DNA of 64,000 bases from NCBI GenBank assembly GCA_051362555.1, contig CM120640.1:11160001-11224000 (forward strand), given 5' to 3'. Numbering within the stretch: position 1 is the first letter of the stretch; each line of letters starts with the position of its first letter. Positions 60 through 64,000 of the stretch are shown one piece after another. A program made the translations under genes and the position numbers. This stretch comes from Lingula anatina. Lineage: Eukaryota; Animalia; Brachiopoda. The notes under the pieces were generated by a model that was not told the DNA's origin, did no database searches, and worked only from the letters and a program-made list of their open reading frames with translations.

Positions 60-8521
<8,462 letters not shown>

Positions 8522-35039: not shown

Positions 35040-37228
35040 AATACCAATGTAAGTAAAATGTGTAACAAACATAAGGCTTCAGGCCCATGGGAGTTCAAGT
35101 TCACCCTTTGAAAATGTAAAACTTCCAGGAAAAGAAGTCAATTAGACTGCTTTTCCAACTCAGGCTGCATTTTAGTCCTGTATTTCTTTTTTGAAAGTTT
35201 GGCAATCATAAGTAACATGGTTTTCCCATAATGGTCATCATGGCAGCAGCACCCAAAATTGTGTTTTCTTCTATTCTGATGCAAAATTACATAATGGTTA
35301 CCAGCATAATGACCATCAATTTTTAATAATAAAATATTAGTATCATGGATATTCAGAAAATGTGCCTAGCAAAGGTCTTCATGCCCATGGAACTTCAAAG
35401 TCACAACTTGAGAATGCCAAAATGTAAACAAGACAGCACTGTTCTGAAATGTTTTTTTTTCCATTTTTAACATTTTTTAACATAAAACAAAATCAACAGT
35501 TTACTGCCATTTTTATATGATCAACTAAAAAAATTGATGAGATGGGAAAAATATTAATAGAGCAGTGTTAAATGTCCAATTTCTTCCATTCTGAGATTCT
35601 GAACATAGTGAATGATTGAATCTGACAAACTGCAATGATATGAGTTTATTTCCATTTTTGCAACTTTATTACACAATACACGATAACAAATTAACCATCA
35701 TTTTTACAAAATCAACTAACAATGTTGTAAAGATGCAGGAAATGTCAAACAAACACTTTTAATATCTTATTAATTAAATAATGAAACTGTTAACATGCCT
35801 AAGAATTGAATCTGAGAAAATGTGAAAAAAACAACATAACTTCTAAAATAATGGCCTGATTATGCTGATCTTTTAACTCAACCTGCGTTTTAGAAGGATT
35901 GACCACTCCTGTGAGTTTAATGACAATTGGCCCATCTGTTTTTCTTATATTGTGTTTACAGTGTTGCATATATGCTGAAAAGTGAAAAAAAAGCATAACT
36001 ACTAAAATAGTGGCCTGATCATGCCGATTTTCTAACTTGACCTGCGTTTTAGTAAGATAGATTACTCCTGTGAGTTTCATGACAACAGGCCTATCGGTTT
36101 TCCTTGGAATGTGTTTACAGTGTTGCATATATGCTGAAAAGTGAAAAATAAAGCTTAACTTCTACAATAATGACCCGATCATGCTGATTTTCGAACTTGA
36201 CCTGCGTTTTATGAATATTCATCAGCTCTGTAAATATAAAGCCAAAAAGTAAAGCTGCCCTCCACTTATCGTGTTTACAATGAAAGTGCACGGCGCCGGC
36301 GACGGCGATGACGGGGACAACAGACGCAGGTGATGGCAATATGTACAGACACATCTATATATATTTACTGTACTAAGTTTGAGAACTGTAAGTGACATGG
36401 TTTTTCTTAAATGGTCATCATGGGAACAGTGCCCAAAATAGTTTTTTTTCAAATTTTGATGCAATATTACATAATGTTTAACAGCATAATGACCATCAAT
36501 TTTTAATAATAAAATATTAGTATCATGGATATTCAGAAAATGTGACTAGCAAAGGTCTTCAGGCCCATGGAACTTCAAAGTCACAACTTGAGAATGCCAA
36601 AATGTAAACAAGACAGCACTGTTCTGAAATGTTTTTTTTTTTTCCATTTTTAACATTTTTTAACATAAAACAAAATTAACAGTTTACTGCCATTTTTATA
36701 TGATCAACTAAAAAAATTGATTAGATGGGAAAAATATCAATAGAGCAGTGTTAAATGTCCAATTTCTTCCATTCTGAGATTCTGAACATAGTGAATGATT
36801 GAATCTGACAAACTGCAATGATATGAGTTTATTTCCATTTTTGAAACTTTATTGCACAATACACGATAACAAGTTTACCATCATTTTTACAAAATCAACT
36901 AACAATGTTGTAAAGATGCAGGAAATGTCAAACAAAAACTTTTACGTATCTTATTAGTGGCGATGGCGATGCTGATGCCTATGGCGATGCCGGCGCCGTG
37001 CACTTTCCTTGTAAACACGATAAGTGGAGGGCAGTTTTACTTTTTGGCTTTACATTTACAGAGCTGATGAATATTCATAAAACGCAGGTCAAGTTCGAAA
37101 ATCAGCATGATCGGGCCATTATTGTAGAAGTTATGCTGTTTTTTCACTTTTCAGCATATTTTTCACATTTCCTCAGACGCAGGTGATGGCAATATGTACA
37201 GACACATCTGTGTCTGTACATAAAAAAG
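35040..37228 (-). mobile_element. Rearranged HINE-like composite repeat (family H3) with direct and inverted internal duplications
   Basis: Direct repeat 35209-35772 / 36389-36957; three ~158-bp subrepeats 35815-36215; 36960-37172 is an inverted copy of ~36130-36310; terminal hairpin tatgtacagacac-atct-gtgtctgtacata next to an A-run at ~37193-37228. Confidence 0.6.
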
Positions 37229-37925: not shown

Positions 37926-40277
37926 TTATGTCGTCACGTCCTCATCCTCCTCTATGTCCAGGTCATCCAAATCTTCAAATAAACTTTCGTCCACCTCAAC
38001 AGCATCTCCCTCTGTAAAGAATAAGGTATAAGATAAACAAATAATTTAATCATTGCAAAAAGTGAAAATAAACAAATGAATATACTATTATTATCATAAT
38101 AATAATAATAATTACAATAATAAAAATAATAATAAGCAGTTAATTATTCAGTTACATGCATGTCTTACATAAGCCTAAGACCCCATTCCCATAGATATTT
38201 AGATCTATCTATCCCCCTGGGGAGTCTCACTAGATTGGTGTCAGCTTAACAGGCTTAAATGTCTGTCCCGCCTACTAAAAGCTGTAAGGGGGTAATAAAC
38301 TATGCTTGGCTGACTGCAATTTAGCGTGACCCCCAGGGAGTTAGGTCGATCTAAATCTAAATCTCTGGATCAATCTAAATCTCTTGAAATGCACTCTAAG
38401 ACATGACATGAACCAGCATCATCATTTTCACTTTTTCATATAAGCATACACTAATGGAGATCTATAAATGAATAACCTTGTATGTATTAGGTAGCTGTAT
38501 GAATTATGGCCATAGACTGTTATAGATGCCAAAAGCTTTTGGTATTTAATAAGTAACAAACCTTCTCCTTCTAAGAACTTTATATCTGAATCATCCATTG
38601 TGGAATCTCTCATAAATAGCTCCCTTCCTAGAATTCAAGATATCTTTTAAAAATAAATTAAATATTTATTGAAGCAATACATTGACATTTCTTTACATTA
38701 CTACATGTATTTAGGAATAAATTAAAATTGTACAATTTGTCTCTCTTTTTTCCTTTTTCATTTATTCATCCATTTACTTTTATTATATTATTTTGTAAAA
38801 TGTTATATACAGCTGTGCAATGGATAATAACACTGACTCATACCTGTTAACTTTTTAGAAACTTCACGCTGCAAACCTGCTTTACGTTTAGCTTCTGCCA
38901 ACTCTGCATCAAATGCAGTCTTCCATGCTAAAAATGTTTCTATCGTAACTTTTGTGCCTTCAAATTTTTTCTGGAAAAAAATTCGGATTAAAGTCAACAT
39001 GTAGCTGTAATGCCAAACATAAAACCAGGCTTCTTTCAGTCATCCTGAAGTAAATTTCACTATCACTGCCTTATTACAACACATATCAGGGAGCTGATCT
39101 CAGTACTATGACAGCGAAAAATTTAACCAAATGTCATAGTTATTAAGTCAATTTTTTATCTGAATCAAATCTTTCAGCTATTTGGCTAAAAGCTGAAAGT
39201 AAATCCAAGGGTAATATTTTTAAATCTACCTGTTCTAATTCTTCTAATTCTCGAGCTTTTCTTTCTCTTTCTTCTTCTTTTCTCTTCTTCCTCTCTTCTC
39301 TCATTTCAGTAAGTTTTTCCTGAGTTGCTGATACTATTGAGAAAACCATAACCATTCCTAAATTTTCTTCTACCTAAAAAAATATTTACAAAAGACATTT
39401 GCTTAAAGTCATTTACTTAAAAGAGAAAAAAGGTGCCAGTCTAGAAAAAAACAAAACAAAAGATATTACATAAGCATATCATAGATCAATTTCTTCAAAC
39501 ATATCTGATGCAATTTTGGCAAAAATCATTCCACTTGAATATAATATTACAGGGTGGCAACTATACCTGACTCTGCATGAACTGCAGTAATGAGTCTGTT
39601 TCCTGATCATCTAAGTTATTTGCATTCACAATTTCCATCAGTGGACCCTCATCTGGATATGAAGGCGTGTATGTAAATTGGACTGTAATTGAAACTGAAA
39701 TGAAAATTCATAATTGTAAATAATGTATTTTATAAAAGAACAATAATTTGAGCCACACACCTGTATAAGTACACGACAGTGCCCTACCTTTACTATTTTT
39801 GTGAAAAACATAATACCATTTATAAAATTAAAGTCAAGGTTACACATACATATGATATAATAAAATAATCATAACACTCACCACTTTCATCTTCATGATT
39901 TTCATTTGGCGAGTCTGTGATGTTTATATCAACAGTAAAAGTGTAAGGTTCTGTGCTTAGCACTAAAAATAAAAAAATAATAAAACAGTAGGACAAGAAC
40001 TATTGATATTCGTGTGTAAAGTTCACAATACTTCAACAAAATTGCAAAATAAATGAGACTGTGCATTGCAGCCACCCCGATTCATGGTCAAACTGCCGAA
40101 GTTAGTTTGTGAATCAGCTGAGCAAGTCATTCCACTAGTAAAACTCATAGTACTTAGGCCTAAACTTATACTAGCAAAGTCAAGGCGTTTCAGATCATCG
40201 TCACCTTTAATTTCATCTGGATAAATAGATTCTAGAGCTTCAATCTCGTTATCTTGTTCTTCTTTGTAGTCAGTCAT
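37926..40277 (-). CDS. RWDD1: RWD domain-containing protein 1, 7 exons
   Basis: Exons approx 40205-40277 (MTDYKEEQDNEIEALESIYP), 39882-39963, 39567-39693 (YPDE), 39230-39372 (ENLGMVMVFSIVSA), 38844-38970 (FEGTKVTIETFLAWK..KLTG), 38562-38627, 37926-38011 (VEVDESLFEDLDDL). Confidence 0.93.
38178..38397. mobile_element. MITE family A, copy 3 (RWDD1 intron)
   Basis: gaccccattcccatagat...ccctggggagtctcactag...ccccagggag; TAA near both flanks. Confidence 0.75.
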
Positions 40278-40446
40278 TTTAGGTAATGCAACCTGGAAAC
40301 AACTGCAATTTCCATCAGCAACACACGTTGTTGTCGGAAGTTGAATGGACTCTGTAGGAAGTTAAAATTTGGCATGCGCGAAAATTCACTTCCGACGACA
40401 ACAGCGTGAAAGTTGATATCAAAAGAAGTACAAGTGACTGGAAGAA
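40278..40446. promoter_or_regulatory. Compact bidirectional promoter RWDD1/TRAPPC3 with inverted ETS-like CGGAAGT sites
   Basis: 169 bp between the two ATGs; gtcggaagt at ~40333-40341 and acttccgac at ~40388-40396. Confidence 0.7.
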
Positions 40447-45813: not shown

Positions 45814-47560
45814 ATGATGGCAAATAACCAAGGGGATGGTACCCCAGATTTTGATAGTCCTGGCCGCATGTTGAGCCAAGCTGCCATATATGATAACTCA
45901 GACCTTATGAACTGCCTGCTTCAAGGTGAAGAAGCCCAGCATATTAACATCCAGGACAACTTTGGTAGAACTGCTCTTCATACAGCTGTAACCAATAACA
46001 GTTTCAATTGTTTCAAAATTCTGATAGAAAGAGGAGGTTGGTTTGTGCTTTTTTCTTCTCTTTTAAAAATATTTAGATATATTTTTTATTTCTTACTATT
46101 CTCAACAACCAAAGTTATTGAAAGATTAATTATTTACAACAGCATGTACCAGTAGATGTTTTTAATCTATTTGACTGATGCTACAAAGAGATTTGATGCC
46201 TTGATCTAAAATGATAAAATCCACATAAATTAAACTGATTACATTAAAGACTACAAAGAAACATTGAAAAATGTGCCTTTAGCTTGCACATAAATGTAGT
46301 CCTACAACAAATGAAATTTCCCTTTTTAAGATGCTAGTAGTTGCACATGTTTGGTCAAATCTCTGGTTAATCATTCACTATGTCATCATCCACTGATCAT
46401 GTAGATATTACAAATGAGATAAGCCATATTTAGCAGATAATTATTTTGAAATTAGCAACTTATTCTAGAAACTATGTGCAGTATTATGAACATTTTTATC
46501 AGTTACAGTAGCTGAAAAACAAGTGTTAGGCGAATTTCATAGTGCCATTCCTTTTTTTTTTAGCTGATCCAAACATAGCATGCAGTGAAAAATTTGGCTG
46601 TATGGTAAGTTATGTAAATCACAAAATTGAAAAGATTCATTGACTGTTGACACAATATTTGAATTTTTAAACTGGTGAATATTTTAAGAAATATATTTCA
46701 AAATGTGGAACCAAAATGTTTTTATTAGACTCCTCTCCACCAAGCGGCCCTTGATGGAAAAACAGATTTCCTGAGGATCCTGCTAGAACATGGAGCGGAC
46801 ATTGAGAAGGAAGATGCCAGTGGTGACACGCCTCTTTCTTTGGCTCATGTCAATAACAATACAGAATGTATCCAGCTGCTGAATCTGGAAGCAGGTATTG
46901 TAAAGCACTGACATGTTTTTTTATGTCAATTTGTATATGAGCAAATTCCTCTTTAAAATGGGTTATTTATTTAAATCTGATATGCTGAATATATTTTTTC
47001 CTGTCAAAAGGTAATGATGTAATCTAGTTTGTAGCTATTATTTCTTGCACCAGAAGTACACAGTAAATACATGCCCCAACATTTATTTTTTCATGGTAGA
47101 AAGAAGAAGAGAGAGAAAACAGGAGGAATTTCAGAGTATGTTGAATTTAAAGGTCCATCACTTCAGTGATTAAAATAACACATTTGTCTGTCAAGGCTTA
47201 TATAAATTATTTGATGTCTTAACACCAAATGAACATAAGAAATATTTAAGTCGTTTTGCTGATATCTTGGGTTCATTATCATTATCATACAGATGAACAG
47301 AAGAGGGTTAAAGATATTTTCTGAAATTGAATTTTAAATTGACATATTATTTTTTCATAGCTTTGCTGAAGTATTGCCAAGATGGAGATGTGAATAAAAC
47401 AAATGAGATTTTGAATGAGCTGGGTGAAAATCTTAAATCATTTCAAAGGTTCAGCACACCTGATTCTCATACTCTATTATACAGGTAATTTTAAAGAATT
47501 CACCATCAGGCTCTGTCAGAATGAACTTGATGCCAACTCCCACTTAAAAGACTACAAAAA

Positions 47561-47639
<79 letters not shown>

Positions 47640-50600
47640 TTATTATTATTATTGTGATCTTCAAGTCACTGCCTTCCTTTGCTCTTGATTAATGACATAT
47701 TTTACCTTTTTAATATTTATTACTATTTTATAAATATAAAGAATTTATTCCTATTTTGAAAATTAATTTTATCCACTTGACCATTTGAAAAAATGGGTTC
47801 AGTGATTCTCCAATTCTTTAACACTGTTTACTGTAGATAAAAAAGAAATCATATTTACAGATAATTTTATATACTGACAATACCAAGTCCAAGTTAATAA
47901 AAAATGACAATGTGATCCCTCTTTTTTGAAATTAATTTTGTGTTTTGATTTGTATTGTAATTTATGTTTTAGTGTGTGTTGTATTTTTGCTAATTTTACT
48001 ATGTATTTTAGTGCATGCATGAGTGGCAATCCTCAGATGGTAGAACTAATGCTATCCCATGGTGCTGAAGCTGAACTTGACCCCGTTGCAAGAGCCACTC
48101 CTCTCCATGCTGCATGTCAAATTGGGAGCAGGGATATTGCTAAACTTTTGTTAGAGGTATAAACTTACATATAAAATATAAGTATATGATACAGTCAAAT
48201 TATATTATGAATGATATGCCATTAATTCCATTTTTGAGCATAAAAATAACAGCATTGAGAGTTTTTTGGGAGTCAGTTGTAAATTTCTCCTACATGCCAC
48301 ACCAATGCCCAGTGTTTTTTTCCTGTGAAAAAAAGAACAGGCATGATAAAAAAATTTTTATCATAGTTAGGGTCAGTCACTCTCATTAATCAGTCCATCA
48401 GTTTTTGTCTGTCATAGAGTGACCATTCTTTGTATGACCTAACAGATAATTAAGTTGCGCTATATTAACTAAAATGTAATTTTTTTTCAGCACTTCCCCA
48501 GTCTAGCAGGTGTACCTTCAAGTGATGGTTCATTGCCCATTCACAAGGCTTCAGAAGTAGGTAGTGCCACTTTGGTGTCACTCCTTTTACATTTTAATTA
48601 TCCTGAGGACTGTTTGGTAGAAATGGAAGCTGGTGACAAGGTCTACAAAGCAGCCTTTAATATCAATGCCAATGATCTGCAGCAGCAAACTCCTCTTTAT
48701 GTGGCCACAAATAACAAGCATTTTAAAACTGTGCAGAAGCTGCTGAAGTATAGAGTTAAGTACTACACTAGGACAAGAAGTGACAGCAGTGGAATCTTCG
48801 GAAGTGATGGCACTATGAGAGAAGAAGATTTGACTGGATCACAAGAAGGTGCAGGCGATGATGAGACAGTGGAAGAAGAATTCTGTCCAGTGATACTTGA
48901 TATCTTCAATAAAAATGGTGAATGTGCATTGCATTGTGCAGTCAGGAATGGTTCATATGATATCATCAGCTTATTGCTAGCAGCAGGTGCAGATATCAAT
49001 ATTCAAACCAAAAATGATGAAAAACTCACAGCTTTAATTCTTGCTTCTGAGAATGTTAATATTCGTGTGCTGGACCTTCTTCTTAAACATGGTGCCCAAG
49101 ACTTTGACAACAAAGCTCTCTTTTCCAACATCATTTCAAATCAAGACAAAATGGTGTCTGCATTGCTGAAACATCGAAGTCATCCAGACACGGAATACCA
49201 TGTTAACAAACTGGCAGCAATGCAGTTTGTTTGCAAAGAAGACAGTGATTTGTTGTATTATCGCAGCATGGACTCTCAGTCCAGTGTCAGCATTCCCAAT
49301 GTGTCTGTGGCAATAGATTGGCATGATTTGGAGATCATTAGAGAAATCAAAGAAACCTGGTTGCTCAGCACATCATATTTCCACAATCCACGCCTGACCT
49401 TCACCCAGAAACAAGTGGCATTATTTGCTATCAGCAGAATTGATGTTTCTAAGAACGATCTTGACTCCCTGCCACCTGTGATATTCCAACTCCAGTCTCT
49501 AAGAATCCTCAATGTCTCACACAACAGATTGAGTAAACTTGTGTCCACCATAGTCTCCAAGCCACTTCAAGAACCTTGGCAGTGTCCTCATCTGTGTGAA
49601 ATCCATTTGCATAACAATAATTTAGTTGAGTTACCTGTACAACTATTTTCATTGCCAGAATTAACCAAATTGGATGTGGCTTACAACAACCTAGAAAACC
49701 TTCCAGTGGAGATGTGGAGTGCCCCCAAGCTAAGTGAACTGAATCTGGCCCACAACAAATTGAAAAGTTTACCCAGGAAGGTGCCTGAGGACATGAGTAG
49801 CTCCACATATGTAGAAAGTATTGCAATAGACACTGGACACCAGATGGATGTTGATATTTCAGAAACCACTGCTCCTGAAGAGGAAAATGGAGAGAAGAAG
49901 TGGTACAAAGAGATTCATGTCAACCATTCCAACCTCTGGTCTACAACTGTGCACTTTGATGATATTGAGGACATCACTGACTCCAGGTCCAGAAAGAATT
50001 CTCAGTTAAGGGATTTGAACCTTTCAGGTAACCTTTTTGCAAAGTGCCCTGAAGTTTTACCTTGTCTAGCACCAGCTCTTCAAAAGTTGAATTTATCTCG
50101 GAACCAAATCAGAGAAATGGCCCCACCAGGACAGTTTCCTGCAACTTTACGATGGCTGGATATGTCTAACAATCATATAGCAAAGATTCAGGAGAAAGAA
50201 GAAACCACCCCAATGTCAGACATGTCTGAATGTTACAGCAGACCAGGACAGTCTTCGTAAGTAAAGCAATTTGGCAGAAAATTGTAATATATGCTTGGAT
50301 GGTATTTATTTTTATGGAAGTAATTGATATTGATGTATATTCTACTTATTTTTTCAGGCTAATTTGTAAAGTGGCATATTTTGATCTTAATACTAATATG
50401 TGTTGTGTATACTTTAATTTTTTCAGGGGAATATCAAAGAACCGGGCCCGTGCAGCTTCTACAGTGAGCACTATAAGCAATTCCAACTACTGTATTCACC
50501 AGAGACATGACAAGCTGGATTCTCTTAAGACACTTATTCTTGCTGGAAACTTCATATCCAAGGTTACTTTGGTGGCTGAAAAAGAGGAAAATCAAGAAGC

Positions 50601-53600
50601 TGACAGTGAAGGACAGGTTTGTGTTGTTGACAGTATTATCATTTTAATGATAATTTAATAATACATACAGTGTTTATATTAAAACATTGCAGTTATTTTT
50701 TGTCCACCTAATAGGTATAATTGATGGTATTTCTTTTGGTTCAGTTATCGTCACATCTCTGCTCACATCTTATTTTTGTGATTGCATAGATACTGAGAAT
50801 ATAAGATGCATAGCTATAATTTTAAGTTTGTGTACAGTAAACTATACAGAACTCATCACTCTACTGTTGAAATTAACTATTTCAAAATGTTAAAACATTT
50901 TTTGGGTGTTAGAAAAAAATTCTACTGTAAGCCGACAACTTTTTAATGTGTTAATATAAAGAAAAGAAAAATTAAAGCTCTGGGGAAGAGGGTTTCTTGG
51001 TTATTGTTTAAGCCGAAAACCATCTATTGCCTTTGTACATATTGGATACATGTGTCATTTGATTAACTCTACTTTTCATTTGTATTCTTATCAATTGCAG
51101 CCAACCTCTCATGAAGCCCCTAAAGTGCGGTATATTCCCAAATTTCCCAACCTAAGTCAACTTGACCTGAGTTCCAACAAAATCATAGATGTGCCCAAGT
51201 CCTTGTCCTCTATGATGCAGCTGACAGCTCTCAACCTGAGGCACAACAGTATCAGAGAGGTAGGCTTTTTTAATGAAAATGTTAGTGTTATGAAATATTT
51301 CAAGTGCTATCACTTAACCATTAATCTTTTGGAAGATAAAAAAAAAAAGAAGAATTGTTAAATCTGCCTGTTGACTGTTAGTATATATGTAATCAGAATA
51401 ATTTAGTCTGAGGGTATTGGACATACTTATCTTTTTATTAATTCAAACGATTTTGCAAAGCTTACTTCAATAACTTTTCTCACAGGTATAGAAATATTTT
51501 TTGAAAACATTTATTGTCCACTTATTAATTTACCAGTTACCACCACAACTTGGGCGTCTCAAGAAACTTTGGAACTTAGATTTAAAGGAAAATGTACTAG
51601 TTGGTCCCCTGCAAGTTATGGTGGAACAAAAAATCAGAACTGCAGACATCATCGGGTTCCTTGGCTCCATCTTGGATGAGTATGTTTATTAAAACTTTAA
51701 GTCACTTATTGGTCAAGATGAAAATTCTGCATTGTGTTTGGCATGTCAGAGGAATGGATTTTTATATTAAGTCCATTATTATATTCAATTTTCAGGACAA
51801 ATTACCTAATTTTGTAATTTCATGATGTTTAATCTCAATGACATTGCAAGTAATATTAATAAAATGCTCGTCCTTCAGTGCCAAACCATATGCACGCATG
51901 AAACTAATGTTTGTTGGCACTGAGAAGATTGGAAAGACAACTTTGCTCAATTGCTTGAGAAATGAGGTTAGGCCAGTGTTTGCTGCAAAAGAGCCACCAC
52001 CAAAGGTATGTGATGATATAGCTACCATATGAATGGGGTTAAATATTTTTGCAAATATAACCAATAATTTTATATTTTAGATCTTTGTTGGATAAAGAAA
52101 AGACAAGCTTCAACAAATTTCACCAATCTAACAAATTTAGATCTTTTAAAGATATGACAATCTTTTAATTTTATTATCTCTCTTTTCAGCACTGGAGCAC
52201 AAGGGTGAGTAGGACAGGAGTGACATCTATGTACAAAGATGCCAAGGGGGAATTCGTGGCAACTGTGGGAGTTGATATAGGGGACCTCACCATTGACAGA
52301 AATGGAAAGAAAGTGTCATTCAAAACATGGGATTTTGGTGGACAGGTACCGTACACTGTAGTTTTGGAAGTGTGTTCATTTAAAGGAGGATTCTTTATTT
52401 TGCCAGTTAAAGTAATGTGAATAACATCAATGATTTTACTAATTCTACATCAAGTTTAGCTTTTACTTGTACGTTTTACTTTGCATTTGCATTTTAGAAA
52501 GAATACTATGCCACCCACCAGTACTTTCTCACCAGACGCTCTCTGTACTTGGTCTTGTGGAAAATTACAGATGGAGAGAAAGGTGTCAGTGAAATTAAGA
52601 GATGGCTTATCAACATACAGGTAAGAGTGTTCCAGTTTTTAAACTGCCAAAGAAATATGTTACAGATCATAGATTTTTTGAAGTCTTGGGTAAATGTTAA
52701 TTCATCAAACATATTTCTTTTGTTCTAAGGTGTACTTTGTATGTTACTGTGTTAACTTTTTTATTGATCATAATAGTGAAGGCATTATATGTGATAATTG
52801 GGTTTGGGTTAATTAGGTTTGAACAAATGAGTAAATCCCTTATCAACATACAGGTAAGAGTGTTCCAGTTTTTAAACAAAGAAATATGTTACAGATCATA
52901 GATTTTTTGAAGTCTTGGGTAACCCCCCCCCCCCCCCCCCCCACCACCATTTTTGCTTATAGAGTTTTTATATGTTGGTTCAAAGTGAAAAGTTGGTTTC
53001 ATATCAGCAAAAATATTATTGGAAAAATCTGAAAAAAAAATGAACCATTTGAAAAGTTAAGAATATTAACTTTTTTTCTTAAGGCCCGTGCTCCAGGAGC
53101 ACCTGTGATCATAATTGGGACTCACCTGGATGAGCTGAAGAGCAGAAGATTTCCTCATAATTTCCTGCCAGACTTGACCAGGCTCATTGACAACCAGTTT
53201 GTGAACATATGTGAGCCTGAAAAGTCTGGATTGCCCCAAGTGAAAGCGAGGATAGAAGTCAGCTGTAAGAAAAGAGATTCTATCAAGAAATTGGTTGATT
53301 TGATACATGAGAAAGTGTTTGAATTGGCTGATGCAGGTAAGCAAAGAGGTTAAATCCATGCAAAGTATTGTTTTTAAAGCCAGTAAACATTTATGAGATT
53401 TATAAGATAATTAAAATCTGCATAATTTTGTAACATTGGCTGTGCTGCTTCTAATCTGATTTTTAATTTAGATTATTTTTTATTTTGGTCCTACGTGATA
53501 TCCAATATAATAATTGTAAAAAATTACATTTAAACATATTAGGCTTCATTCCCATAGACACCATTGGTCTACATAGATCGATCTAACTGGGAGGGACTCT

Positions 53601-56600
53601 GGTTGAGTGCGTTCAGACAACAAATTAACCAGACTCGTCCTGGCATTAAGTAGAATACAGAAAAGTTGGTGATAATATGAATATGTTGGAAACAAGAAGA
53701 GGTGTGTCATTCAGTTCAGTTTAGTTAAGCAAAGTTGGATTGATCTATGCAGACCAGAATGGGGTCTTTGATACCACATAACTGGTACATGCAAAATCAT
53801 TTCCTATAATATCTTACTTAATGTCTAGGTAGTAGATCTAACAAACTTCTGGAGCAGAAGATCCCTGCCAAATATTTGGAGCTTGAGGATGTGGTGAGAG
53901 CTCTTGCAGAGGAGAGGGAGAGACAAGATAAAGACCCAGTGCTGCATGCAGATCAGTACAAGTATGTTGAGTAACTTAAGAATGAGGGGTTTTAATGTCC
54001 TACAGATCAACTAATACTTGAAAAATATGTATACGGCCTTAGATATGTACTTAGACAAAAGAGATTCATTGTTGGCTTTAAAAAAACTAAAAAGTAGAAC
54101 AGTTGATTAAGAAATTAGTTGAATGATATGTAAATAATACTTTAAAATATATTATGGATCATTTTGTAGAACACTTGTAATGCTGAAAATGGAAGAGATG
54201 TTCAAGCATTCCTTCCGTGATCTTCAGGAGCTGAATCAAGCCACTCATTTCCTACATGACAATGGTAAGCAGTCGGCTCTTACTGGGGAATTTTCAGAAA
54301 GTAGTATAATAAATAAGCTTATATAAAAGATATTTACAGAACATGTTTTAGTTAAATTCTTCACATTATTCATGAACCAATAATGATCGTAGAAATTTGT
54401 GAAAGTGTACATATAAGCCACCAAAATTAAAAAAAAAAAAAAAATTGCCATTCCAGTTTGTATTTGTATTTTCAGGTGTATTGCTTCACTACAATGATGT
54501 TTCTCTTCGGGATATGTACTTTCTTGATCCCCAGTGGCTGTGTGATATGTTGGCCCATGTGGTCACTGTCAGGGAGATAAACAGTCTGGCTAAGTTTGGT
54601 GAGTGCTTGACACTTATTTATTGCATTGTGAAGAAGTCATTGATTTAAAATAAAGTGATTATATACTTATAGTAGTTGCCTTGTTTTTACCTTTTTAATG
54701 ATAACAAAGATAGCAAAAAGAAACATGCCTTATATTGGAGATAACTTGTTTTGTCTGCTATGAAGTATTGAAATTCAGTATGTATTTGGTCATGTATTAA
54801 AATAATTGTTGCATTTATTATATCATAAATTTTATAATTGTTTTATGTTTATGGAAAAAGCAGATATGACACCCAGTGTTTTTGGAATATGTTTAGGGCA
54901 CTCTTTGGGACAAATCATTATCTGTTAGGTATCTGATACATGATGAAAATATTCTTTCATTAATAGGTGTTATGCAAACCGATGATCTTCAGATTTTGTT
55001 CAGAAACTCTGCATTCAGACCTGAAGACATTAAGGAATACATCATTGGTCTACTAAACAAATTTGAGGTGGCTCTGCTTTGGGATGATAAACATCTTCTG
55101 ATCCCTTCTTTACTACCAACAGAAGAAGAATTGAAAAATGACATATGTGATGTTAAGGTAACTTTTTATCTATCGATGGCTAATATTGTATTTCAAGTCC
55201 CATTAGTATTGTACATGGCAGTGCAAATTTGGCAAGGTTAAGTATTGGTGTCCTATTAACAACTTGAGCCACACTAAAATTCGTGTTGGATCGTGTTTTT
55301 AGTTGTTTTCCTTTTTTTTTTTTTTTTAGCTATTTAGGATTATCTGTTCACATTTTCATTAACTTTTCAAAGTTATCTTTGTGTATGTTGCAACTGAATT
55401 TAAGCACAGATGAAACTTTCGTGATATTCATGTACATATACCCCTTCCATGTTTTTAGATACCTATGAGGCTTCCAATAACAGAGAACAGAAAGTCAACT
55501 CTCATACCTGCCAAGAAGCCTACAGACAGACGCTCATCCTTAGTTCCCCCAGTGCTGCCACGTGAAATCTATGCAGGGAAATCTACCTTCTATGCACCCT
55601 CTGGTGATGAAAACAGGGCAGAAATGAATTCAAAGTTTGAGCAGAAGACTGATCAACAGGAGACTGAGCCAGCAATGGAAAGGAAAAGCTCCACAGGGAT
55701 GCTTACACCATCCAGCATTCTCACTTACACTTCCAGCCCTACAAGTTCACTGCGGCGGCTGTATCTTATGACCTACTTTCCCAGTGGATTTTGGCCACGC
55801 CTTATCACCAGGTTGCTAGGAGACAGATCTTTGTACAACATTGTATGTGACATGTACAAGATTCCAGATGTGTTGAGGTCTGATCCAGCAGTGAATAATT
55901 TGAAGGGGCATGCTGAATGGAGTTGTTGGCAAACGGGTCTGGAGCTCCACCTTGTCACCACTCTCCTGCGAGTTAAAGAAGTTGACGCAGAAAAGCCATT
56001 CACACTTTGTGACTTCAGAAAGTGTTTTCTAAAATGGGAGAGTGAAAACAACATGTGGAAGGATCTGAATGTGACCAGCATGTCCATTCTTGAAATTTTC
56101 CTTCCCAATGATGTCATAGTTGTGAAAACTGAAAGTGACAGCTATGATCTGCCATGCAACCCTAAGGCTGCTGCCAAAATGCTGTCAAAGATTGTTGATC
56201 ATATTGATATGCTGCTAGAAGACTGGTATCCTGACCTAGGTAAGCATTGGTGAATATGGTGTCACTGGACATTTTTTAATTTTTTTGGATGTAGTACACG
56301 AACATGTAGCAGAAGAAATGATAAGTAAACATGTTTTTTAAAGCCTTATTCTCACCTGAGTGGAGCAACTGGGTAGTCTTAACTCATTACATATGATGTA
56401 TTTGTAGTAATGCATATGCCAATAGTTTTCTGAATTTGTAATTGTTTATTAATTTCCCAATTAAAACGTCTTTTTTAGGTGTGAGATTTGTGCATACATC
56501 TGAGGGCACCTACCTTGTTACGAGGATAGTCCCTTGCCCATTATGTGTGATGGACCAGGCTCAGCAGCAGGCCTCCACTACAGAGCATGGACAGTTTTTA

Positions 56601-59600
56601 TGGTCAATGGTTGGACTAACCCGGCCAATGGGAACTAAACCACTAGAACCAGAGGCTGTGGTCACAGATGAAGTGAATGTGCCCCTTGGACAGCAGTCAG
56701 TATCATTTTTTTTTAATAAGCAAAAAAAAAATGTCTGATATGGATCAATATTTCCTTTCGTTTATCTGTACTCATTTGCTTGGCTATTTTTAAATTTTGT
56801 ATGCCTATATGTCACATAAATCTCCTTTTACGAAGAAGGTGTGTGTGTGTGTCTGTGTGTCTGTCTGTCTGTCTGTCTGTCTCCTCAGGTATTGAGCATT
56901 TCTTGCATTTTATTATTATTTTTTTTTTGTAGGAAACAGAGTCAAGAGGGTGTTATCTATTGCTACATGGCTGAGCACCTTACACAGCTGATTCAGCACA
57001 GCAAACCAATCAAGTGTCCATCTCATGATGTGCTGGTCAGTATGGATGCAGCTGTCCAAGACAAAGTGGCCCATATTGCTCCTGACTTGGTGAGTGACAT
57101 GCTGTATGTATCTGTAGTAACAGTTTGGGTTTTAAGAAATGGTAATGTAATATGTATATGCCTGTCATCAGGTAAGACATCCTGCTGCACTATATTGATA
57201 GTGTATAATTCACAGGATATATAAAAAATTGGGTAGGTGTATTGTAGATGTGTTCTCAGTGGCAATGTACCTCATTGTTCTTAAAGAACATTATAGAATG
57301 CTGCCAATTATGCTGTCATGTGTAAAGAACAGACCATATATTGCAACTGGCAAGACATTTCTATGCCCTTTTTTAACTTAGATGTTTGACGATCTTGGAG
57401 AAGACTATCAGATCAAGGCCATTCAGCACACTGATTTCCTGGGCAGAGGAAGTTTTGGAAATGTTTTTGCAGGAACAGCTGAAAACAAGGTGCTTAAATT
57501 TATATAGCAACAGTAATATAAGTATAGCATAAGCGTTTATTTGAAGTGTGAATAGTTTTTCTAAGAATGAATTATAGGCAGGTTTGTTAGAATTTTAGTT
57601 ATATTATAAATATAAGATAATATTTTGAAATCTGATACATTTTATTGGGTGCTTTTTCTAGAGCAAAAATATTGATGACTGTTGTATTCTGTAAGTGACA
57701 GTTTCATTGATTGTGTGTATTTTTTCAGCTTGGGAAGGTGTGTAATGCTGCATTGAAGATGTTAGAGCCTGTGAACCCTGGGGATGACGCATCAAATACA
57801 GAGAAGGAGCATTACAAGGTAAGAGCAGGCTGCAATCCATGATTTGATAGATTTATGATACCAAGAGTTAAATATTTGAATTATTAGTATTACATGTATA
57901 CTGTTCTCCTAATACATGTAATGTCCTTGTGCCATATTTCATCATCATGACATTCAATGGCCTGTGCAATGTATTTCATCCTCTTAATTGTACCACCAGC
58001 GTTAGCGCTGGCGGTACACATGGTTTCGGTCCCGTCCGGATCGTTCCGCCGGCTCCGCCGGCTCCGCCGGTTCCGCCGGCTCCGCCGGCTCCGCCGGACG
58101 GCTACCGTTACCGCTTCTCCTCCTAGACGGTAAGGCCCCCCGTACCCATCTCATGGATTTAGGTCACCTATAATCTCAACTCGTTCCACGTAAAATTTGG
58201 GCTTTGTCGGTATTGGGGTCTGGGTGTGGCACTCATTGCAATGCACCCTTGTCTAAAAATGGCAAAATTAAATGCTAATTATCTACCCTACGGAAGGAGT
58301 TATGGGAAAAATTTCTATAGACGGCTTTCCAAAAGTCATATGTGTAGATTTCAAATATACCCTTGGATTTGACCTTTGACCTTTACTTCAAGGTCAAATG
58401 GGCCAAAATTTTCAAAAAAAAATCGAAAAAAAATTTTTTTGCTCTGTTATTCAGACACCACACAGACTTAACCAATAATATTATTGGAAAGTGTTACCCT
58501 TCAGGTCATCTTTCATCTCCATGAATTTGGGGTCAATCGGTGCATTTTCACGGGAGTAGCGGCCATAAGATACGGAAACTGAAAACTGTCTCTAATTCGG
58601 GAACCGTTAATGCTAGAGACCCATTCTTTTTTGCATTTTGTAGAGCATGTAAAGCCCAACACTGGAGGTGGTCTCGGTTTTTTTGTATTCCATACTGTTT
58701 TCGAGTTACGCTGTATCAAAAAGTACATATTGGTGGTAAAAGCAAAATGTGCAGTACGGTAATGGATAATAAATTTTGAACTCTGGAAAAATAAAACATT
58801 AGGCTTGGCAAAGCAGACAACTTGTGTTCAAAAATGACATTATTTCATCAAATTTGAACTTCTGAAACTTCAGAGCACCTCCTATTTCAAGAATTTTGAC
58901 CAAAATGACATTTTCTTTATTTTAATTAATTTTTTCTGTACAAAATTTAAGGCACATTATGGTAACTCCAAAATTATAACATTTAGTCCCTTATATCTCC
59001 AAAACTGGCAGAGATAGGTCTATAGTTACTATTGAAGTTGAATAGGAAGTCATATACTGGCAATCTATATGTGACCTTGAAATTGACCTTTGACCTACTT
59101 TTCACCATGAACTGAACTTTGCAAATTTTTCTTCCCTTTTATCTCCAAAACTGGCAGAGATAGGTCCATAGTTACTATTGAACTTGAATAGGAAGTCATA
59201 TACTGGCAATCTATATGTGACCTTAAAATTGACCTTTGACCTACTTTTCACCATGAACTGAACTTTGCAAATTTTGCTTTCCTTTTATCTCCAAAACTGG
59301 CTGAGATAGGTCCGTAGTTACTATTGAACTTGAATAGGAAGTCATATACTGGCAATCTAAATGTGACCTTAAAATTGACCTTTGACCTACTTTTCATCAT
59401 AAACTGAACTTTGCAAAATTTGCTTCCCTTTTATCTCCAAAACTGGCAGAGATAGGTCCATAGTTACTATTGAACTTGAATAGGAAGTCATATACTGGCA
59501 ATCTAAATGTGACCTTGAAATTGACCTTTGACCTACTTTTCACCATGAACTGAACTTTGCAAACTTTTCTTCCCTTTTATCTCCAAAACTGGCAGAGATA

Positions 59601-62600
59601 GGTCCATAGTTACTATTGAACTTGAAAAGGAAGTCATATACTGGCAATCTAAATGTGACCTTAAAATTGACCTTTGACCTACTTTACACCATGAACTGAA
59701 TTTTGCAAATTTTGCTTTCCTTTTATCTCCAAAACTGGCTGAGATAGGTCCGTAGTTACTATTGAACTTGAATAGGAAGTCATATATCTCCAAAACTGGC
59801 AGAGATAGGTCCATAGTTACTATTGAACTTGAATAGGAAGTCATATACTGGCAATCTAAATGTGACCTTGAAATTGACCTTTGACCTACTTTTCACCATG
59901 AACTGAACTTTGCAAATGTTTCTTCCCTTTTATCTCCAAAACTGGCAGAGATAGGTCCATAGTTACTATTGAACTTGAATAGGAAGTCATATACTGGCAA
60001 TCTAAATGTGACCTTAAAATTGACCTTTGACCTACTTTACACCATGAACTGAATTTTGCAAATTTTGCTTTCCTTTTATCTCCAAAACTGGCAGAGATAG
60101 GTCAGTAGTTACTATTGAACTTGAATAGGAAGTCATATACTGGCAATCTAAATGTGACCTTAAAATTGACCTTTGACCTACTTTTCACCATGAACTGAAC
60201 TTTGCAAATTTTTCTTCCCTTTTATCTCTAAAACTGGCAGAGATAGGTCCATAGTTACTATTGAAGTTGAATAGGAAGTCATATACTGGCAATCTAAATG
60301 TGACCTTAAAATTGACCTTTGACCTACTTTTCACCATAAACTGAACTTTGCAAATTTTGCTTCCCTTTTATCTCCAAAACTGGCAGAGAAATTGACCCTT
60401 GACCTACCTTACGAAGAACTTAAATTTGATTGTACCATATATATTTTTTGCAATAGTTTAAAAATTCTTGTTGATTGCATTTTTACAGCTTGTCAAGCAC
60501 AAAACTGGTGGCTGTGTCCCTTATTTTGTGTATGTGGGGGTCTACATGAATGAGCTTGCTCCAGCTGGTGGTACAATATTTGGAGGCGGTATCGCCTCTC
60601 TGATCCTCTAGTTTTAGTTATGTGTTATATTTCTCTTCGTCTGTAGAGACAAATAGGGATGTGGGAACATGATCCCACTCGTTGCTCCTGCACAGCTTAT
60701 AGCACTGCTCGGCAGGAACTGAGTATTCTCCAAATACTGCATCACCCAAATATTGTTCCCCTGCTGGGTGTCTGCATGAAACCAATGTGTCTAGCCTTGG
60801 GTCTGGCACCACAGGGAAATCTGAAACACTGTCTTAAGAGCTATACTGTTCTCCTAATACATGTAATGTCCTTGTGCCATATTTCATCATCATGACATTC
60901 AATGGCCTGTGCAATGTATTTCATCCTCTTAATTTTAGTTATGTGTTATATTTCTCTTCGTCTGTAGAGACAAATAGGGATGTGGGAACATGATCCCACT
61001 CGTTGCTCCTGCACAGCTTATAGCACTGCTCGGCAGGAACTGAGTATTCTCCAAATACTGCATCACCCAAATATTGTTCCCCTGCTGGGTGTCTGCATGA
61101 AACCAATGTGTCTAGCCTTGGGTCTGGCACCACAGGGAAATCTGAAACACTGTCTTAAGAGCTATAAGAGGCTAGGTGCACGGTTGCCATTATTTGTGCT
61201 GAAGAAATTGATTATGCAGGTAAGAAGTTCAATTAATAAATATTTTAAAATTAAAAAAAAGAGAACTTCAGAGAAGAGATTTAGACATATATTTTCATCA
61301 TCCTGCAATGACTATTATGAGACCTTGATTGTATTTTATACAAATACCTTTGTCTTCACAGATTTCCTCTGCAGTGGAGTACTTGCATTCCATTGATATC
61401 ATACACAGAGATTTGAAAGCAGAGAATGTCTTGGTTTGGTCCATGCCTCCTCCATATATCCACAACCCCCAATCAGTGGTAGATGTCAAGCTAACAGACT
61501 ATGGAGTAAGCCGTGCTGCATTGCCAAATGCTGCCAAAGGACATGCTGGGACCCCTGCATTTATTGCACCAGAAATATTAATGCATGCTGGAGAAGAAGT
61601 TTATACCTCTAAGGTAATATTTCAGTTTCCTGTCTAATAAGTCTGTAGTTGCAGATTACCATGTAGTACCCTTACATATGTTGCTGAAAGGACATGTACA
61701 TATGAATATTTACTAATGTTTCAGTGATTATATAGCAATTAATAACTTTGGAACCATGACCAACCATATAGATAATTCATGAATACTTATTTCCAACAAA
61801 TTTGCATGGTGACATGTTTGTCCAATTCTACAAGATTGACAACATTTTCTTTGTATCATTACTTCATATTTTATGAAAATGTTTTTATTATAGGTGGATT
61901 GTTATTCCTTTGGAGTTGTGATGTATGAAATAATTGCCCTGAAGAAACCATATCAAAATATTGAGCAGTCTGATCTGCAGGAATATGTCCTAGCAGGAAA
62001 CCGACCCCTGCTTACTGAGAAGGTAGGCAAATATTTGAATAAAAAGTAAGAGAGGAAGCTGTAAGAAATAACTTGGGATAGTTTGGCAAATGATGTTTCT
62101 TCTTCTTAATGTGTATATTTGCAAACATGTTTAATGATTTATCTTATTTATTTTGCAATTTCCACTCAGAAAAAAGATACTACATATTTCTAAAAATACA
62201 TAAATTGTAATTTCAGGATTCAACTCACTATCCAACCCATGTGTTGGACCTGATGGGACAGTGTTGGTCACATGATCCACACCAGCGTCCCACGGCTCAA
62301 CAAATCAACTGTATAGCATCCTGTCCAGAGTTCTGTCACCTTCAGGACTGCGTGAGTGCAGAAAGTGAGATGGAGGTGACAGCTGCTTGTGGAGTTTGCT
62401 CAGAGTTTTCAGATCAAGAGAAACAAGGGCTGGAAGCCAGTGGTGGGTAGTTTAAAGTCACACCATAAGCATTAGACCTTTATGTACATAAACATGACAT
62501 TTTCCTGGTGATTTCAACACTTTTCTCTCAATCTTTAAGGTATACCTCACCAGAACTGCTGTCAAAATTACCATATATAAACTTTTTTTAGTTTTAAGTT

Positions 62601-63225
62601 CCAAATTTATATATACATGTATATACCATAATTTTTTTAAAGATCAGATGCTGTATTTTTGTCTCAAAACATCTGATGATGTGTATCAGCATACCAAAAC
62701 TGAATATCAGTAATCTATAAAATCATAGGTAGCCTCTGTTTGGTAGCAAAAGTTATCACACAGAAAATAAAATTCTTTCAGCCCTACTGTCAACAAATTC
62801 AGTGCCTGAGAGACATGATGTCTGGTTAGCAATGTCCAGTTTGGCCAATACCACTAGTACCACAAACATCCAGGTGTGGACATATGAAAACAATACTTGT
62901 GTCCAAGGAAAGGTAAATAGCCATCACTCATTTGATAAAAACTCATCACACTTTTTAAAAATTTTTGTGGTATAGATTTTATTGAGAAATATATGTTTCT
63001 TTTTAATTTATAACTCAGCATCATTTGTTGTTTCTGTGTTTAAAATACCTAACATAACTGATTTATTGTGATTTGGACATAGTTCATGATTATTTTTACC
63101 ATATTGGATTTATTTCTTCTTGTTTTTCAGAATATTATCTCTAAGTGCCTCCCAATATCATGTATGTATGCTGCCAAGGACCAGATATGGTGTGCAGATG
63201 AAAAGGGAACCATAATAATTTTTAG
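45814..63225 (+). CDS. LRRK1: LRRK1-like leucine-rich repeat ROCO kinase (ANK-LRR-ROC-COR-kinase-WD40); 3' end beyond window
   Basis: Ankyrin exons ~45814-49150; LRRs ~49400-51678; ROC GTPase (GTEKIGKTTL 51879-52005, WDFGGQ 52190-52345, IIGTHLD 53084-53336); COR 53828-57089; kinase (LGRGSFG 57382-57489, IIHRDLKAENVL and DYG 61362-61613); WD40-like exons 62782-63225. Probable 5' UTR exon ends at ~45268. LRRK1 rather than LRRK2 is inferred from the N-terminal ankyrins without an ARM region. Confidence 0.9.
47569..47652. repeat. (AT)n followed by (ATT)n microsatellite
   Basis: Seen directly. Confidence 0.9.
52606..52922 (+). repeat. ~87-bp direct duplication of a LRRK exon end plus splice donor (52606-52693 / 52839-52922)
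   Basis: cttatcaacatacag|gtaagagtgttccag...aagtcttgggtaa occurs twice, with one 4-nt indel. Confidence 0.9.
53541..53768. mobile_element. Diverged MITE sharing family A termini (LRRK intron)
   Basis: ggcttcattcccataga ... gaatggggtct termini and a tagatcgatcta motif; interior differs from other copies. Confidence 0.5.
57988..60611 (+). mobile_element. Helentron/HINE-type family H1 copy 2 (LRRK kinase-domain intron), complete, no nested MITE
   Basis: Starts ttgtaccaccagcg-ttag-cgctggcggtaca, then (ccggctccg)n and the 146-bp array; ends gctggtggtacaat..gaggcggtatcgcctc..ctctag|tttt; reverse complement of copy 1. Confidence 0.88.
58987..60390. repeat. 146-bp monomer tandem array, ~9 units plus one internally deleted unit
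   Basis: tgacctttgacct at 59084, 59230, 59376, 59522, 59668, 59875, 60021, 60167, 60313. Confidence 0.93.
60612..61166 (+). repeat. 321-bp tandem duplication of LRRK intron end, acceptor and partial kinase exon (copy A = 57901-57989 + 60612-60845; copy B = 60846-61166)
   Basis: Apparently identical copies by eye; paired ORFs 60659/60980 are offset by 321; TATA microhomology at the junction. Confidence 0.92.
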
Positions 63226-63289
63226 GTAAGGGATTTTGATTTAGTTAAAAATTTGAAAAGACAGAAAGATTGAGGACTACAAGCAATAA

Positions 63290-64000
63290 TTAGTACCACC
63301 AGCGTCTACGCTGGCGGTACTCATGGTTTTAGTCCCGACCCGTCTCGTACGGCTCCGCCGGCTCCGCCGGCTCCGTAAGCTCCGTTGGCTCCGCAGGGTG
63401 TCGTGGGATACAAGTCACCGTTACCGCTTCTTCTCCTAGACTGCATGGGCCTGTGTGCCCATCTCTTGGATTTAGGTCACATATAATCTCAACTTGAACC
63501 CCTGGGTATTTTTGTCTCAGTCGGTGCATTGCCCTTGGCATGACACTCGTCGAAAGGCACCCTTGTCAAAATCTTTGGAAATTCAATGCTAAATATCTCC
63601 CATACCGAAGGAATTATGGGAAAAATTTCTACAGATGGCTGACCGAAAGTTATATGTGGAGATTTCAAATATGCCCTTGGATTTGACCTTTGACCTTTAT
63701 TTCAAGGTCAAACGGGCCAAAATTTTCTAAAAATGGGAATTTTTTGCAAAAAATTTAATATTTTATGCCGATTTTCAGAAATTTCACAGATCTAACTTAT
63801 AATATTATGGACAGGTGTTACCCTGAGGGTCTTCTGTCATCTTCGTGAGTTTGGGGTCAATTGGTGCATTTTTACGGGAGTAGCGGCCATTAGATGCCGA
63901 CACTGAAAACTCTCTCCAATTCTGGAACTGTTAATGATAGAGACCTCTTGTTTTTTGCATTTTGTAGAGCTTGTCAAGCGCAACACTTGAGGTGTTGTCC
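63290..64000 (+). mobile_element. Diverged H1-subfamily HINE copy 3, truncated by window end
   Basis: agtaccaccagcg-tcta-cgctggcggtact hairpin, ggctccgcc repeats, collinear with 57988-58670 but visibly more diverged. Confidence 0.8.

What the first reader, a model, noticed from the sequence alone, without database searches (positions are those of the whole stretch)
57897..61219. Duplicated LRRK kinase splice acceptor: one copy split by a Helentron, the twin keeps the empty site
Seen: a 321-bp unit (intron end, AG acceptor and the first ~199 nt of a kinase exon) is duplicated through a TATA microhomology (57897, 60842, 61163). Copy A has the 2.6-kb H1 element inserted at cctcttaat|ttttagtt, ~35 nt upstream of its exon start (60647). 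Copy B has the uninterrupted site cctcttaattttagtt and the complete exon (60968-61219). Inference: CTTAAT looks like the branch point, so the insertion moves it 2.6 kb away from acceptor A while B stays intact. Each lesion could be harmful alone (decoy acceptor leading to a stop at 60893, or loss of the branch point), but together they would restore normal splicing. This would be a mutually compensating duplication/TE pair, or a duplication made during insertion.
Basis: partly seen in the sequence, partly recalled or inferred. Interest (0 to 1): 0.8.

Follow-up and report, generated by a model that had tools for sequence, protein, structure and literature searches.

The report
Spare splice acceptor carrying a transposon
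One version of an invertebrate LRRK kinase gene carries a 321-base repeat of an intron end and exon start with a 2.6-kb rolling-circle-type transposon inside the first copy; its junctions are real DNA, the allele is likely heterozygous, and it is likely a tolerated spare splice site of a kind already known from lancelets rather than two lesions that rescue each other.

Summary
The structure is confirmed. Two copies of a 321-bp intron-end/exon-start unit are 100% identical and joined at a TATA microhomology. A 2.6-kb non-autonomous Helentron (HINE) sits at a TT in copy A, 35 nt before its acceptor. Short-read contigs hold the duplication junction and the element junction, at about half the flank depth. 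So the allele is real and likely heterozygous; an intact single-copy allele exists in another sample. Contigs cannot phase element and duplication; only the assembly puts them in cis.

Mutual compensation is untested and its branch-point leg is weak. The element's tail supplies its own CTGAT at -44, and such motifs occur at chance level here (13 of 27 introns; shuffles 14.1). Exon-edge duplications ('mirages') are known from amphioxus as tolerated. This gene has a second one, and the scan noted the class before on other DNA of this genome.

RNA shows only normal splicing, but depth is low (27 reads) and genotypes are unknown. A one-way rescue by intron lengthening (204 to 2,828 nt) remains open.

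Verdict: real, young, ordinary allele; interest low to moderate.

The parts
57729..57818 (+). Upstream kinase exon (90 nt, phase 0) with donor AAG|GTAAGA at 57818
   Evidence: Open frame; its end is the loose end joined to the next exon in RNA contig X9 and 4 reads of X15
57897..57989 (+). Copy A, intron part before the element (starts with TATA, ends in TT)
   Evidence: 93/93 identical to 60842-60934
57988..60611 (+). Non-autonomous Helentron (HINE-type), 2,624 bp counting the leading TT
   Evidence: Anatomy; 89-94% like the copy at 13123-17006; very high copy number
57988..58017 (+). 5' subTIR (13 nt) with nested inverted repeat
58045..58097 (+). 9-nt microsatellite, 5.9 copies
58987..60389 (+). 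Central array of 146-bp repeats (5.5 + 4.1 copies, one 61-bp partial unit)
60564..60576 (+). 3' subTIR (reverse complement of the first 13 nt)
60583..60598 (+). 3' hairpin (6-bp stem, 4-nt loop), 13 nt from the CTAG end
   Evidence: Sequence; paired in the fold
60600..60604 (+). CTGAT, branch-point-like motif supplied by the element, A at -44 from acceptor A
   Evidence: function untested
60612..60845 (+). Copy A, last 35 nt of intron, acceptor A (exon start 60647) and 199 nt of exon without its donor
   Evidence: 234/234 identical to 60933-61166
60842..60845 (+). TATA microhomology, A/B junction
   Evidence: 56-nt junction contig in X3
60863..60868 (+). Weak cryptic donor GTAATG; would give an in-frame 216-nt extra exon and a 105-nt intron
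   Evidence: Score 2.7 against 2.3-12.3 for modelled donors; use untested
60893..60895 (+). TGA met on read-through from acceptor A
60929..60933 (+). TTAAT, candidate branch point of copy B (A at -36), at the empty insertion site
   Evidence: kept in the short allele of X7; not mapped
60842..61162 (+). Copy B, uninterrupted 321-bp unit with acceptor B (exon start 60968)
60968..61219 (+). Complete kinase exon (84 aa), spliced on to 61362
   Evidence: Pfam PF07714 E 6.5e-7; joint 61219-61362 in X9 and one read each of X12 and X15
45814..63226 (+). LRRK1-like gene (ANK, LRR, ROC, COR, kinase); rough model of 28 exons, 2,184 aa open, runs on past the modelled part
   Evidence: some boundaries approximate

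Best explanation
A 321-bp intron-end/exon-start unit of an LRRK1-like gene is tandemly duplicated across a TATA microhomology, with a non-autonomous Helentron at a TT in the first copy; the allele is likely young and heterozygous, and its RNA is likely spliced to the intact second acceptor whether or not the element is there. Shown: the anatomy, the junctions in read contigs, a single empty allele in another sample, and normal splicing in RNA of unknown genotype. Inferred: (1) origin by microhomology-mediated repair or template switching, as a two-copy 'mirage'; (2) a separate, later insertion into copy A; (3) B wins because only B is followed by a real donor at exon distance (252 nt against 573 nt), and any A-spliced read-through would be removed by nonsense-mediated decay; (4) the allele persists because it is near neutral or masked by the intact homologue, not because two harmful lesions cancel.
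For: Junction contigs and depths: X3 junction 15.8, element junction 27.1, flanks 46.8 and 54.4, repeated part 65.6. X1 junction about 61, element junction about 77, flanks about 113 and 106, repeated part 175.9. Repeated part/flank is 1.60 and 1.30, against 1.5 expected if heterozygous and 2.0 if homozygous. X7 has a 270-nt contig running upstream flank, empty site, exon with no break. 0 differences in 321 bp bounds divergence below 0.93%. Acceptor-side mirages of 150-160 bp in amphioxus BflGb6 are reported not to disturb splicing (PMC3087553 section 16; PMC3902484 passage). A donor-side copy (88 nt, 95%) sits in the same gene with no element. Copy A keeps a branch-like motif. No RNA depth at 60842-60953 among 21 (X12) and 6 (X15) reads, and the 3,321-nt spliced contig of X9 crosses the TATA unbroken.
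Against: RNA genotypes are unknown: 4 of 4 X15 reads and 2 of 7 X12 reads at 61054 carry the non-window base, depth is low, and decay would hide A use, so the RNA does not test the allele. Without the element the intron to A would be 204 nt; in human data short introns favour the upstream acceptor (PMC9225289 sections 3 and 9), so a duplication-only allele could be harmful. With 3 family copies in 64 kb, a hit in one given 321-bp copy is only about 1.5% by hand estimate, and less for young copies; this favours a coupled origin or selection. X1, X3 and X6 may stem from one animal or strain, and X1 and the sample of X3 (through its run X2) are flagged as possible sources. Run X2, from the same sample as X3, shows no junction contig at about 10x.
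Confidence: 0.45

Rival explanations
1. Rescue by the element. The duplication alone would send splicing to decoy A across a 204-nt intron; the element lengthens that intron to 2,828 nt and moves TTAAT away, switching recognition to exon definition and acceptor B. One-way rescue about 0.2; full mutual compensation, with the insertion alone also harmful, about 0.08.
For: Intron and exon sizes. Transition near 250 nt, and long-upstream/short-downstream exons behaving as exon-defined (PMC9225289; human data). 13 of 27 modelled introns here are under 250 nt. The element falls exactly at the TTAAT, which a short natural allele keeps. The element's CTGAT is less unpaired (0.55 against 0.78) and has two AG at -37 and -31 behind it.
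Against: No single-lesion allele was seen. The allele looks heterozygous, so no rescue is needed. A keeps its whole pyrimidine tract and gains CTGAT. Branch motifs are at chance level (13 of 27; shuffles 14.1, P 0.73). The two upstream AG score -2.8, against 4.9-15.5 for modelled acceptors. Mirages are reported as tolerated without elements.
Confidence: 0.2
2. Damaged allele hidden by heterozygosity: A is used often even with the element, giving a decay substrate (stop at 60893) or, through the weak donor at 60862, a kinase with 72 extra residues repeating part of the N-lobe.
For: A and B have identical last 35 nt and score. The element supplies CTGAT. The human data show only a reduced upstream preference under exon definition. 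The in-frame product is open. No homozygous-looking sample among the 5 DNA runs laid.
Against: No junction-bearing RNA among 27 reads and 1 contig (genotype unknown, so weak). The in-frame donor is at the bottom of the real range.
Confidence: 0.2
3. One-step origin (about origin only; compatible with any splicing outcome). The single-strand insertion left a filled and an empty template side by side, and repair synthesis copied the filled one, then switched back 321 bp at TATA onto the empty sister or homologue.
For: Both events look equally young and occur together at similar depth in X1 and X3, and both are absent from X7. Chance overlap is small. Helitrons move one strand and are tied to DNA synthesis (PMC5876387 passages). 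HINE-like elements are reported near duplication breakpoints in Drosophila (PMC4067079 section 17).
Against: HINEs are reported to leave targets unmodified. The element lies 91 nt and 234 nt from the breakpoints, not at one. 0 of 2 other family copies in the window have duplicated flanks. The passages read describe no such product.
Confidence: 0.25
4. Assembly haplotype switch: the animal has an insertion-only chromosome and a duplication-only chromosome, and the assembly crossed between them inside the 234-nt shared block.
For: This genotype gives exactly the same word depths as intact plus element/duplication; no laid record spans both copies.
Against: It needs two separate rare alleles in the same animal and a switch within 234 nt. 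The window lies on a piece of at least 30 Mb, which suggests, by inference, a long-read assembly. A purely artefactual junction is excluded by the 56-nt contig.
Confidence: 0.1

Closest known systems
Amphioxus 'mirages' (BflGb6, BflGb9, Adh3, troponin C, PGBD5); PMC3087553 abstract and section 16, PMC3902484 one passage
   Same: Head-to-tail copy of an intron 3' end plus exon 5' part (as in BflGb6), copy number differing between haplotypes, spare AG present.
   Different: Unit is 321 bp against 10-160 bp; only two copies; one copy carries a 2.6-kb element; harmlessness not shown here for carriers.
Non-autonomous Helentrons: Drosophila DINE-1, mite HINE-Mo, oyster Cg_HINE; PMC4067079 passages and section 17, PMC7492417 passages
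   Same: 13-nt subTIRs, 5' nested inverted repeat, microsatellite, central tandem array, 3' hairpin, TT target with extra T, no target duplication, no coding frame.
   Different: 9-nt microsatellite (3-8 nt in Cg_HINE); ends in CTAG like a canonical Helitron (end motif recalled); autonomous partner not seen; no sequence comparison with those families was made.
Human F7 IVS7 37-bp minisatellite; PMC1557585 abstract
   Same: Identical duplicated splice sites of which only the exon-adjacent one is used.
   Different: Donor side, many short units, no transposon.
Repair-mediated duplications; PMC2671141 abstract and section 10
   Same: Local copies of up to 619 bp that include partial exon/intron pieces, ascribed to synthesis-dependent repair.
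   Different: Those are copies inserted near their donor; this one is strictly tandem with a 4-nt microhomology.
Invertebrate LRRK1-like (Lrrk/lrk-1 type) kinases
   Same: ANK, LRR, ROC, COR, kinase order; best hits 29-33% identical and named LRRK1 or LRRK1-like by their sources.
   Different: No tree built; C-terminal WD40 part lies beyond the modelled region.

Membership tests
HINE (non-autonomous Helentron) | Subterminal inverted repeats of about 11-15 nt | tested here: met
   First 13 nt recur reversed at 60564-60576, 35 nt from the 3' end
HINE (non-autonomous Helentron) | Short inverted repeat beside the 5' subTIR | tested here: met
   58007-58017, one mismatch
HINE (non-autonomous Helentron) | 3' palindrome/hairpin near the end | tested here: met
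   60583-60598
HINE (non-autonomous Helentron) | Microsatellite and central tandem repeats | tested here: met
   9-nt x 5.9 and 146-bp array
HINE (non-autonomous Helentron) | TT target, flanking T, no target-site duplication | tested here: met
   Filled against empty twin differ by the element plus TT; the copy at 13123-17006 also has TT on both sides
HINE (non-autonomous Helentron) | No coding capacity | tested here: met
   Longest ATG frames 50 and 103 aa
HINE (non-autonomous Helentron) | Autonomous Rep/Helicase partner sharing the ends | not testable with these tools
   No whole genome held; metagenome scan for the 3' end gave 0
Mirage (exon-edge tandem repeat) | Head-to-tail repeat spanning an exon-intron boundary with its splice signal | tested here: met
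   tandem once the element is set aside
Mirage (exon-edge tandem repeat) | Copy number differs between haplotypes | tested here: met
   One copy in X7, junction at half depth in X1 and X3
Mirage (exon-edge tandem repeat) | Minisatellite-like array of short units (10-160 bp, often 3 or more) | tested here: not met
   321 bp, two copies; filed as mirage-like, not as a mirage minisatellite
Mirage (exon-edge tandem repeat) | Regular splicing undisturbed | tested here: inconclusive
   Only normal product in 27 reads and 1 contig, carriers not identified
LRRK1-like kinase | ANK-LRR-ROC-COR-kinase order | tested here: met
   Pfam ANK, LRR, COR-B, kinase (the 68-aa ROC piece gave no Pfam hit); ROC exons by tblastn
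LRRK1-like kinase | Orthology by tree; C-terminal WD40 | not tested
   No tree built; gene runs past the modelled exons
Compensatory (sign-epistatic) mutation pair | Each lesion alone impairs splicing and the pair restores it | not testable with these tools
   No single-lesion allele seen and no carrier RNA identified

The most novel reading that the evidence does not exclude
A transposon insertion rescues a splice-site duplication by length: it stretches a 204-nt intron to 2.8 kb (and displaces the branch point), flipping recognition from intron definition, which would pick the decoy, to exon definition, which picks the true acceptor. If duplication and insertion arose in one repair event, Helentron insertion would sometimes leave a self-repairing 'filled plus empty' tandem pair.
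Probability: 0.17. Interest if true: 0.65.

Novelty: new member of a known kind. Interest (0 to 1): 0.3.

Why it matters
As it stands: a clean natural example of two common mutation types meeting at one splice site, with the empty target kept beside the filled one, which fixes the element's ends exactly. It is a ready-made four-allele test (plain, duplication, insertion, both) of how an invertebrate with introns of about 280 nt chooses between identical acceptors. If rescue held, it would show epistasis between two structural mutations acting through intron length. If the one-step origin held, it would add a target-side product to Helentron transposition. Neither is shown.

Tried and rejected
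No whole genome was held, so no genome-wide count of element-in-duplication cases was possible. A metagenome scan for the element's 3' end found 0. The run search listed no RNA holder on record; X9 turned out to hold a spliced contig when laid.

Pure assembly artefact: rejected by the junction contig. Homozygous allele: rejected by depth ratios.

Duplication-only allele in X6: considered, because X6 has the junction (about 72) but no element-junction depth. Dropped: its contigs break at GATC and a GATC lies 6 nt inside the element end, so it looks like a GATC-cut library (inference).

Insertion-only allele in sample S2: suggested by X2 (no junction, about 3x extra depth at the element junction). 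Dropped: X3 of the same sample holds both junctions.

Branch point by motif: uninformative. Flank duplication at other family copies: none in 2 of 2. RNA could not separate A from B use.

Paper searches for a described compensating duplication/transposon pair or a Helitron-made flanking duplication listed none by title or abstract start; this covers the open library only. Scan look-ups near the place, by sequence and by words gave nothing. No supplements were opened; Supplementary Table S2 and Fig. S2 of PMC7492417 could bear on the family comparison.
Full report
1. Observation. The window reads: upstream exon (donor 57818), 78 nt of intron, copy A part 1 (57897-57989), element (57988/57990-60611), copy A part 2 (60612-60845), copy B (60842-61162), and the rest of the exon to donor 61219. 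The two blocks match with 0 differences over 93 and 234 nt, and TATA stands at all three breakpoints. A microhomology of 4 nt or more occurs at 2.5% of random offsets of 250-400 nt in this gene, which fits repair by microhomology (inference). Read-through from acceptor A stops at 60893; splicing to B keeps the frame.

2. Host gene. Pfam finds ANK, LRR, COR-B and kinase in 4 of 5 pieces given. The best of 36 database hits are named LRRK1 or LRRK1-like at 29-33% identity, and three of them map colinear exons. A rough 28-exon model using B is open for 2,184 aa; 26 of its 27 introns are 124-527 nt (median of all 277) and this one is 3,149 (a few boundaries are approximate). Earlier scan notes call the genome Lingula, a brachiopod; I did not test that.

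3. Element. It has a 13-nt subTIR pair, a nested 5' inverted repeat, a 9-nt microsatellite, a 146-bp array, a 3' hairpin, TT on both sides, and no long reading frame. These are the HINE features in PMC4067079 (passages) and PMC7492417 (passages), including the extra T at the ends. Two more copies lie in the window, at 13123-17006 (minus strand, 89-94% alike) and from about 63291 (78%). Summed contig depth at the element end is about a million against about 110 for unique flank in X1, so the family has thousands of copies (rough, as depths are summed).

4. Is it real? Of 21 listed runs, 8 were laid. X3 holds a 56-nt contig made of 61137-61162 plus 60842-60871, which is the A/B junction (depth 15.8). 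It also holds a 51-nt contig of element end plus flank (27.1), the empty site, and both unique flanks (46.8, 54.4). In X1 contigs end exactly at 60612, 60845 and 60842; solving three depth bins gives junction 61, flanks 106 and 113, element junction 77 (this assumes 30-letter overlaps are counted). X6 solves to junction 72 and looks GATC-cut. X2 shows no junction at about 10x although it shares a sample with X3, so absence from contigs is weak. X7 shows no junction, a 270-nt contig through the plain single allele, and a second haplotype lacking 60886-60946 with TTAATGA in its place. Repeat/flank depth is 1.60 (X1) and 1.30 (X3), against 1.5 for a heterozygote and 2.0 for a homozygote. A pool at about half frequency would look the same. 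X1, X3 and X6 may not be independent animals. Word graphs cannot tell 'plain + both' from 'insertion-only + duplication-only'; cis rests on the assembly.

5. RNA. X9 gives one 3,321-nt spliced contig: upstream exon, this exon through the TATA, then 61219 to 61362. X12 (21 reads) and X15 (6 reads) have no depth at 60842-60953. But 4 of 4 X15 reads and 2 of 7 X12 reads at 61054 carry the other base, carriers are not identified, and decay would hide read-through. This confirms the exon boundaries and expression, not the choice between A and B.

6. The branch-point argument. The last 35 nt before A and B are identical and score the same (9.4; modelled acceptors 4.9-15.5). B has TTAAT at -36; A has CTGAT from the element at -44. 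Such motifs (consensus recalled) lie at -50 to -12 in 13 of 27 introns, against 14.1 in shuffles, so the motif alone locates nothing.

7. The decoy argument. In amphioxus, acceptor-side repeats of 150-160 bp are reported not to disturb splicing (PMC3087553 section 16; PMC3902484 passage), and identical spare donors in human F7 stay silent (PMC1557585 abstract). This gene has a second spare site, an 88-nt donor copy at 52839-52922. Unchecked scan notes report the class as common in this genome, one case with 51 spare acceptors and RNA using only the last. A weak in-frame donor at 60862 offers a route round the stop. Against my reading: in human data short introns favour the upstream acceptor, and long-upstream/short-downstream exons behave as exon-defined (PMC9225289 abstract, sections 3 and 9). 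The intron to A would be 204 nt without the element and is 2,828 nt with it. That gives rescue a better mechanism than branch-point loss, but it is untested in this animal.

8. Origin. Two steps (duplication, then insertion in A) is simplest. Three family copies in 64 kb give about 1.5% per 321-bp copy by hand estimate: low for one locus, but expected often if exon-edge duplications are common. A one-step template switch is mechanistically conceivable because Helitrons move one strand with DNA synthesis (PMC5876387 passages), and HINEs are reported near duplication breakpoints (PMC4067079 section 17). But the element is not at a breakpoint, and neither other copy has a duplicated flank (one tested on one side only). 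Maize Ac duplication papers (PMC4270019, PMC3744419) were seen as search listings only.

9. Verdict. Observation confirmed; real, young, likely heterozygous allele. Best reading: tolerated or masked spare acceptor (0.45). Rivals: rescue by the element (0.2; mutual about 0.08), damaged but masked (0.2), haplotype switch in the assembly (0.1); one-step origin 0.25 on a separate axis. Both parts belong to known kinds. Searches listed no description of a compensating pair, within the open library. Interest 0.3.

Noticed in passing
window 52606-52693 and 52839-52922: 88-nt, 95% copy of a ROC exon end plus its donor, 233 nt downstream in the intron, followed by a C run; a second spare splice site in the same gene
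   Followed up: partly
window 23988-24018 and 24911-24939: A short piece from inside an exon recurs 923 nt downstream behind a pyrimidine tract and AG, like a vestigial acceptor/exon copy
   Followed up: no
window 13123-17006 (-): Second copy of the same HINE with a doubled 5' part (15359-16176 about 96% like 16176-17002) and a 50-bp array at 15184-15416; it seems to lie in an intron of an EF-Tu-like gene on the minus strand (name recalled from the translations)
   Followed up: partly
window 63291-64000: Third, more diverged (78%) copy of the family in a later intron of the same LRRK gene, cut by the window end
   Followed up: partly
window 35195-35772 and 36375-36956: 582-nt, 93% direct repeat with a 159-bp-array element between the copies, an inverted piece of that element at 36989-37159, and a 36-nt exact repeat (36321, 37174); possibly another, older duplication around a mobile element
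   Followed up: no
run X7, window 60885 to 60947 (copy B coordinates): Natural short intron allele: 61 nt replaced by TTAATGA, keeping a TTAAT about 25 nt before the acceptor, on a haplotype with exon variants
   Followed up: partly
window 59724-59847: 61-bp partial unit interrupting the 146-bp array of the element
   Followed up: no
window 2948-3547, 23800-29109, 38806-40361: Exon-like frames resembling a thiolase, lectin-domain proteins with a Thr-rich tract, and an RWD-domain protein (names recalled from translations; not searched)
   Followed up: no
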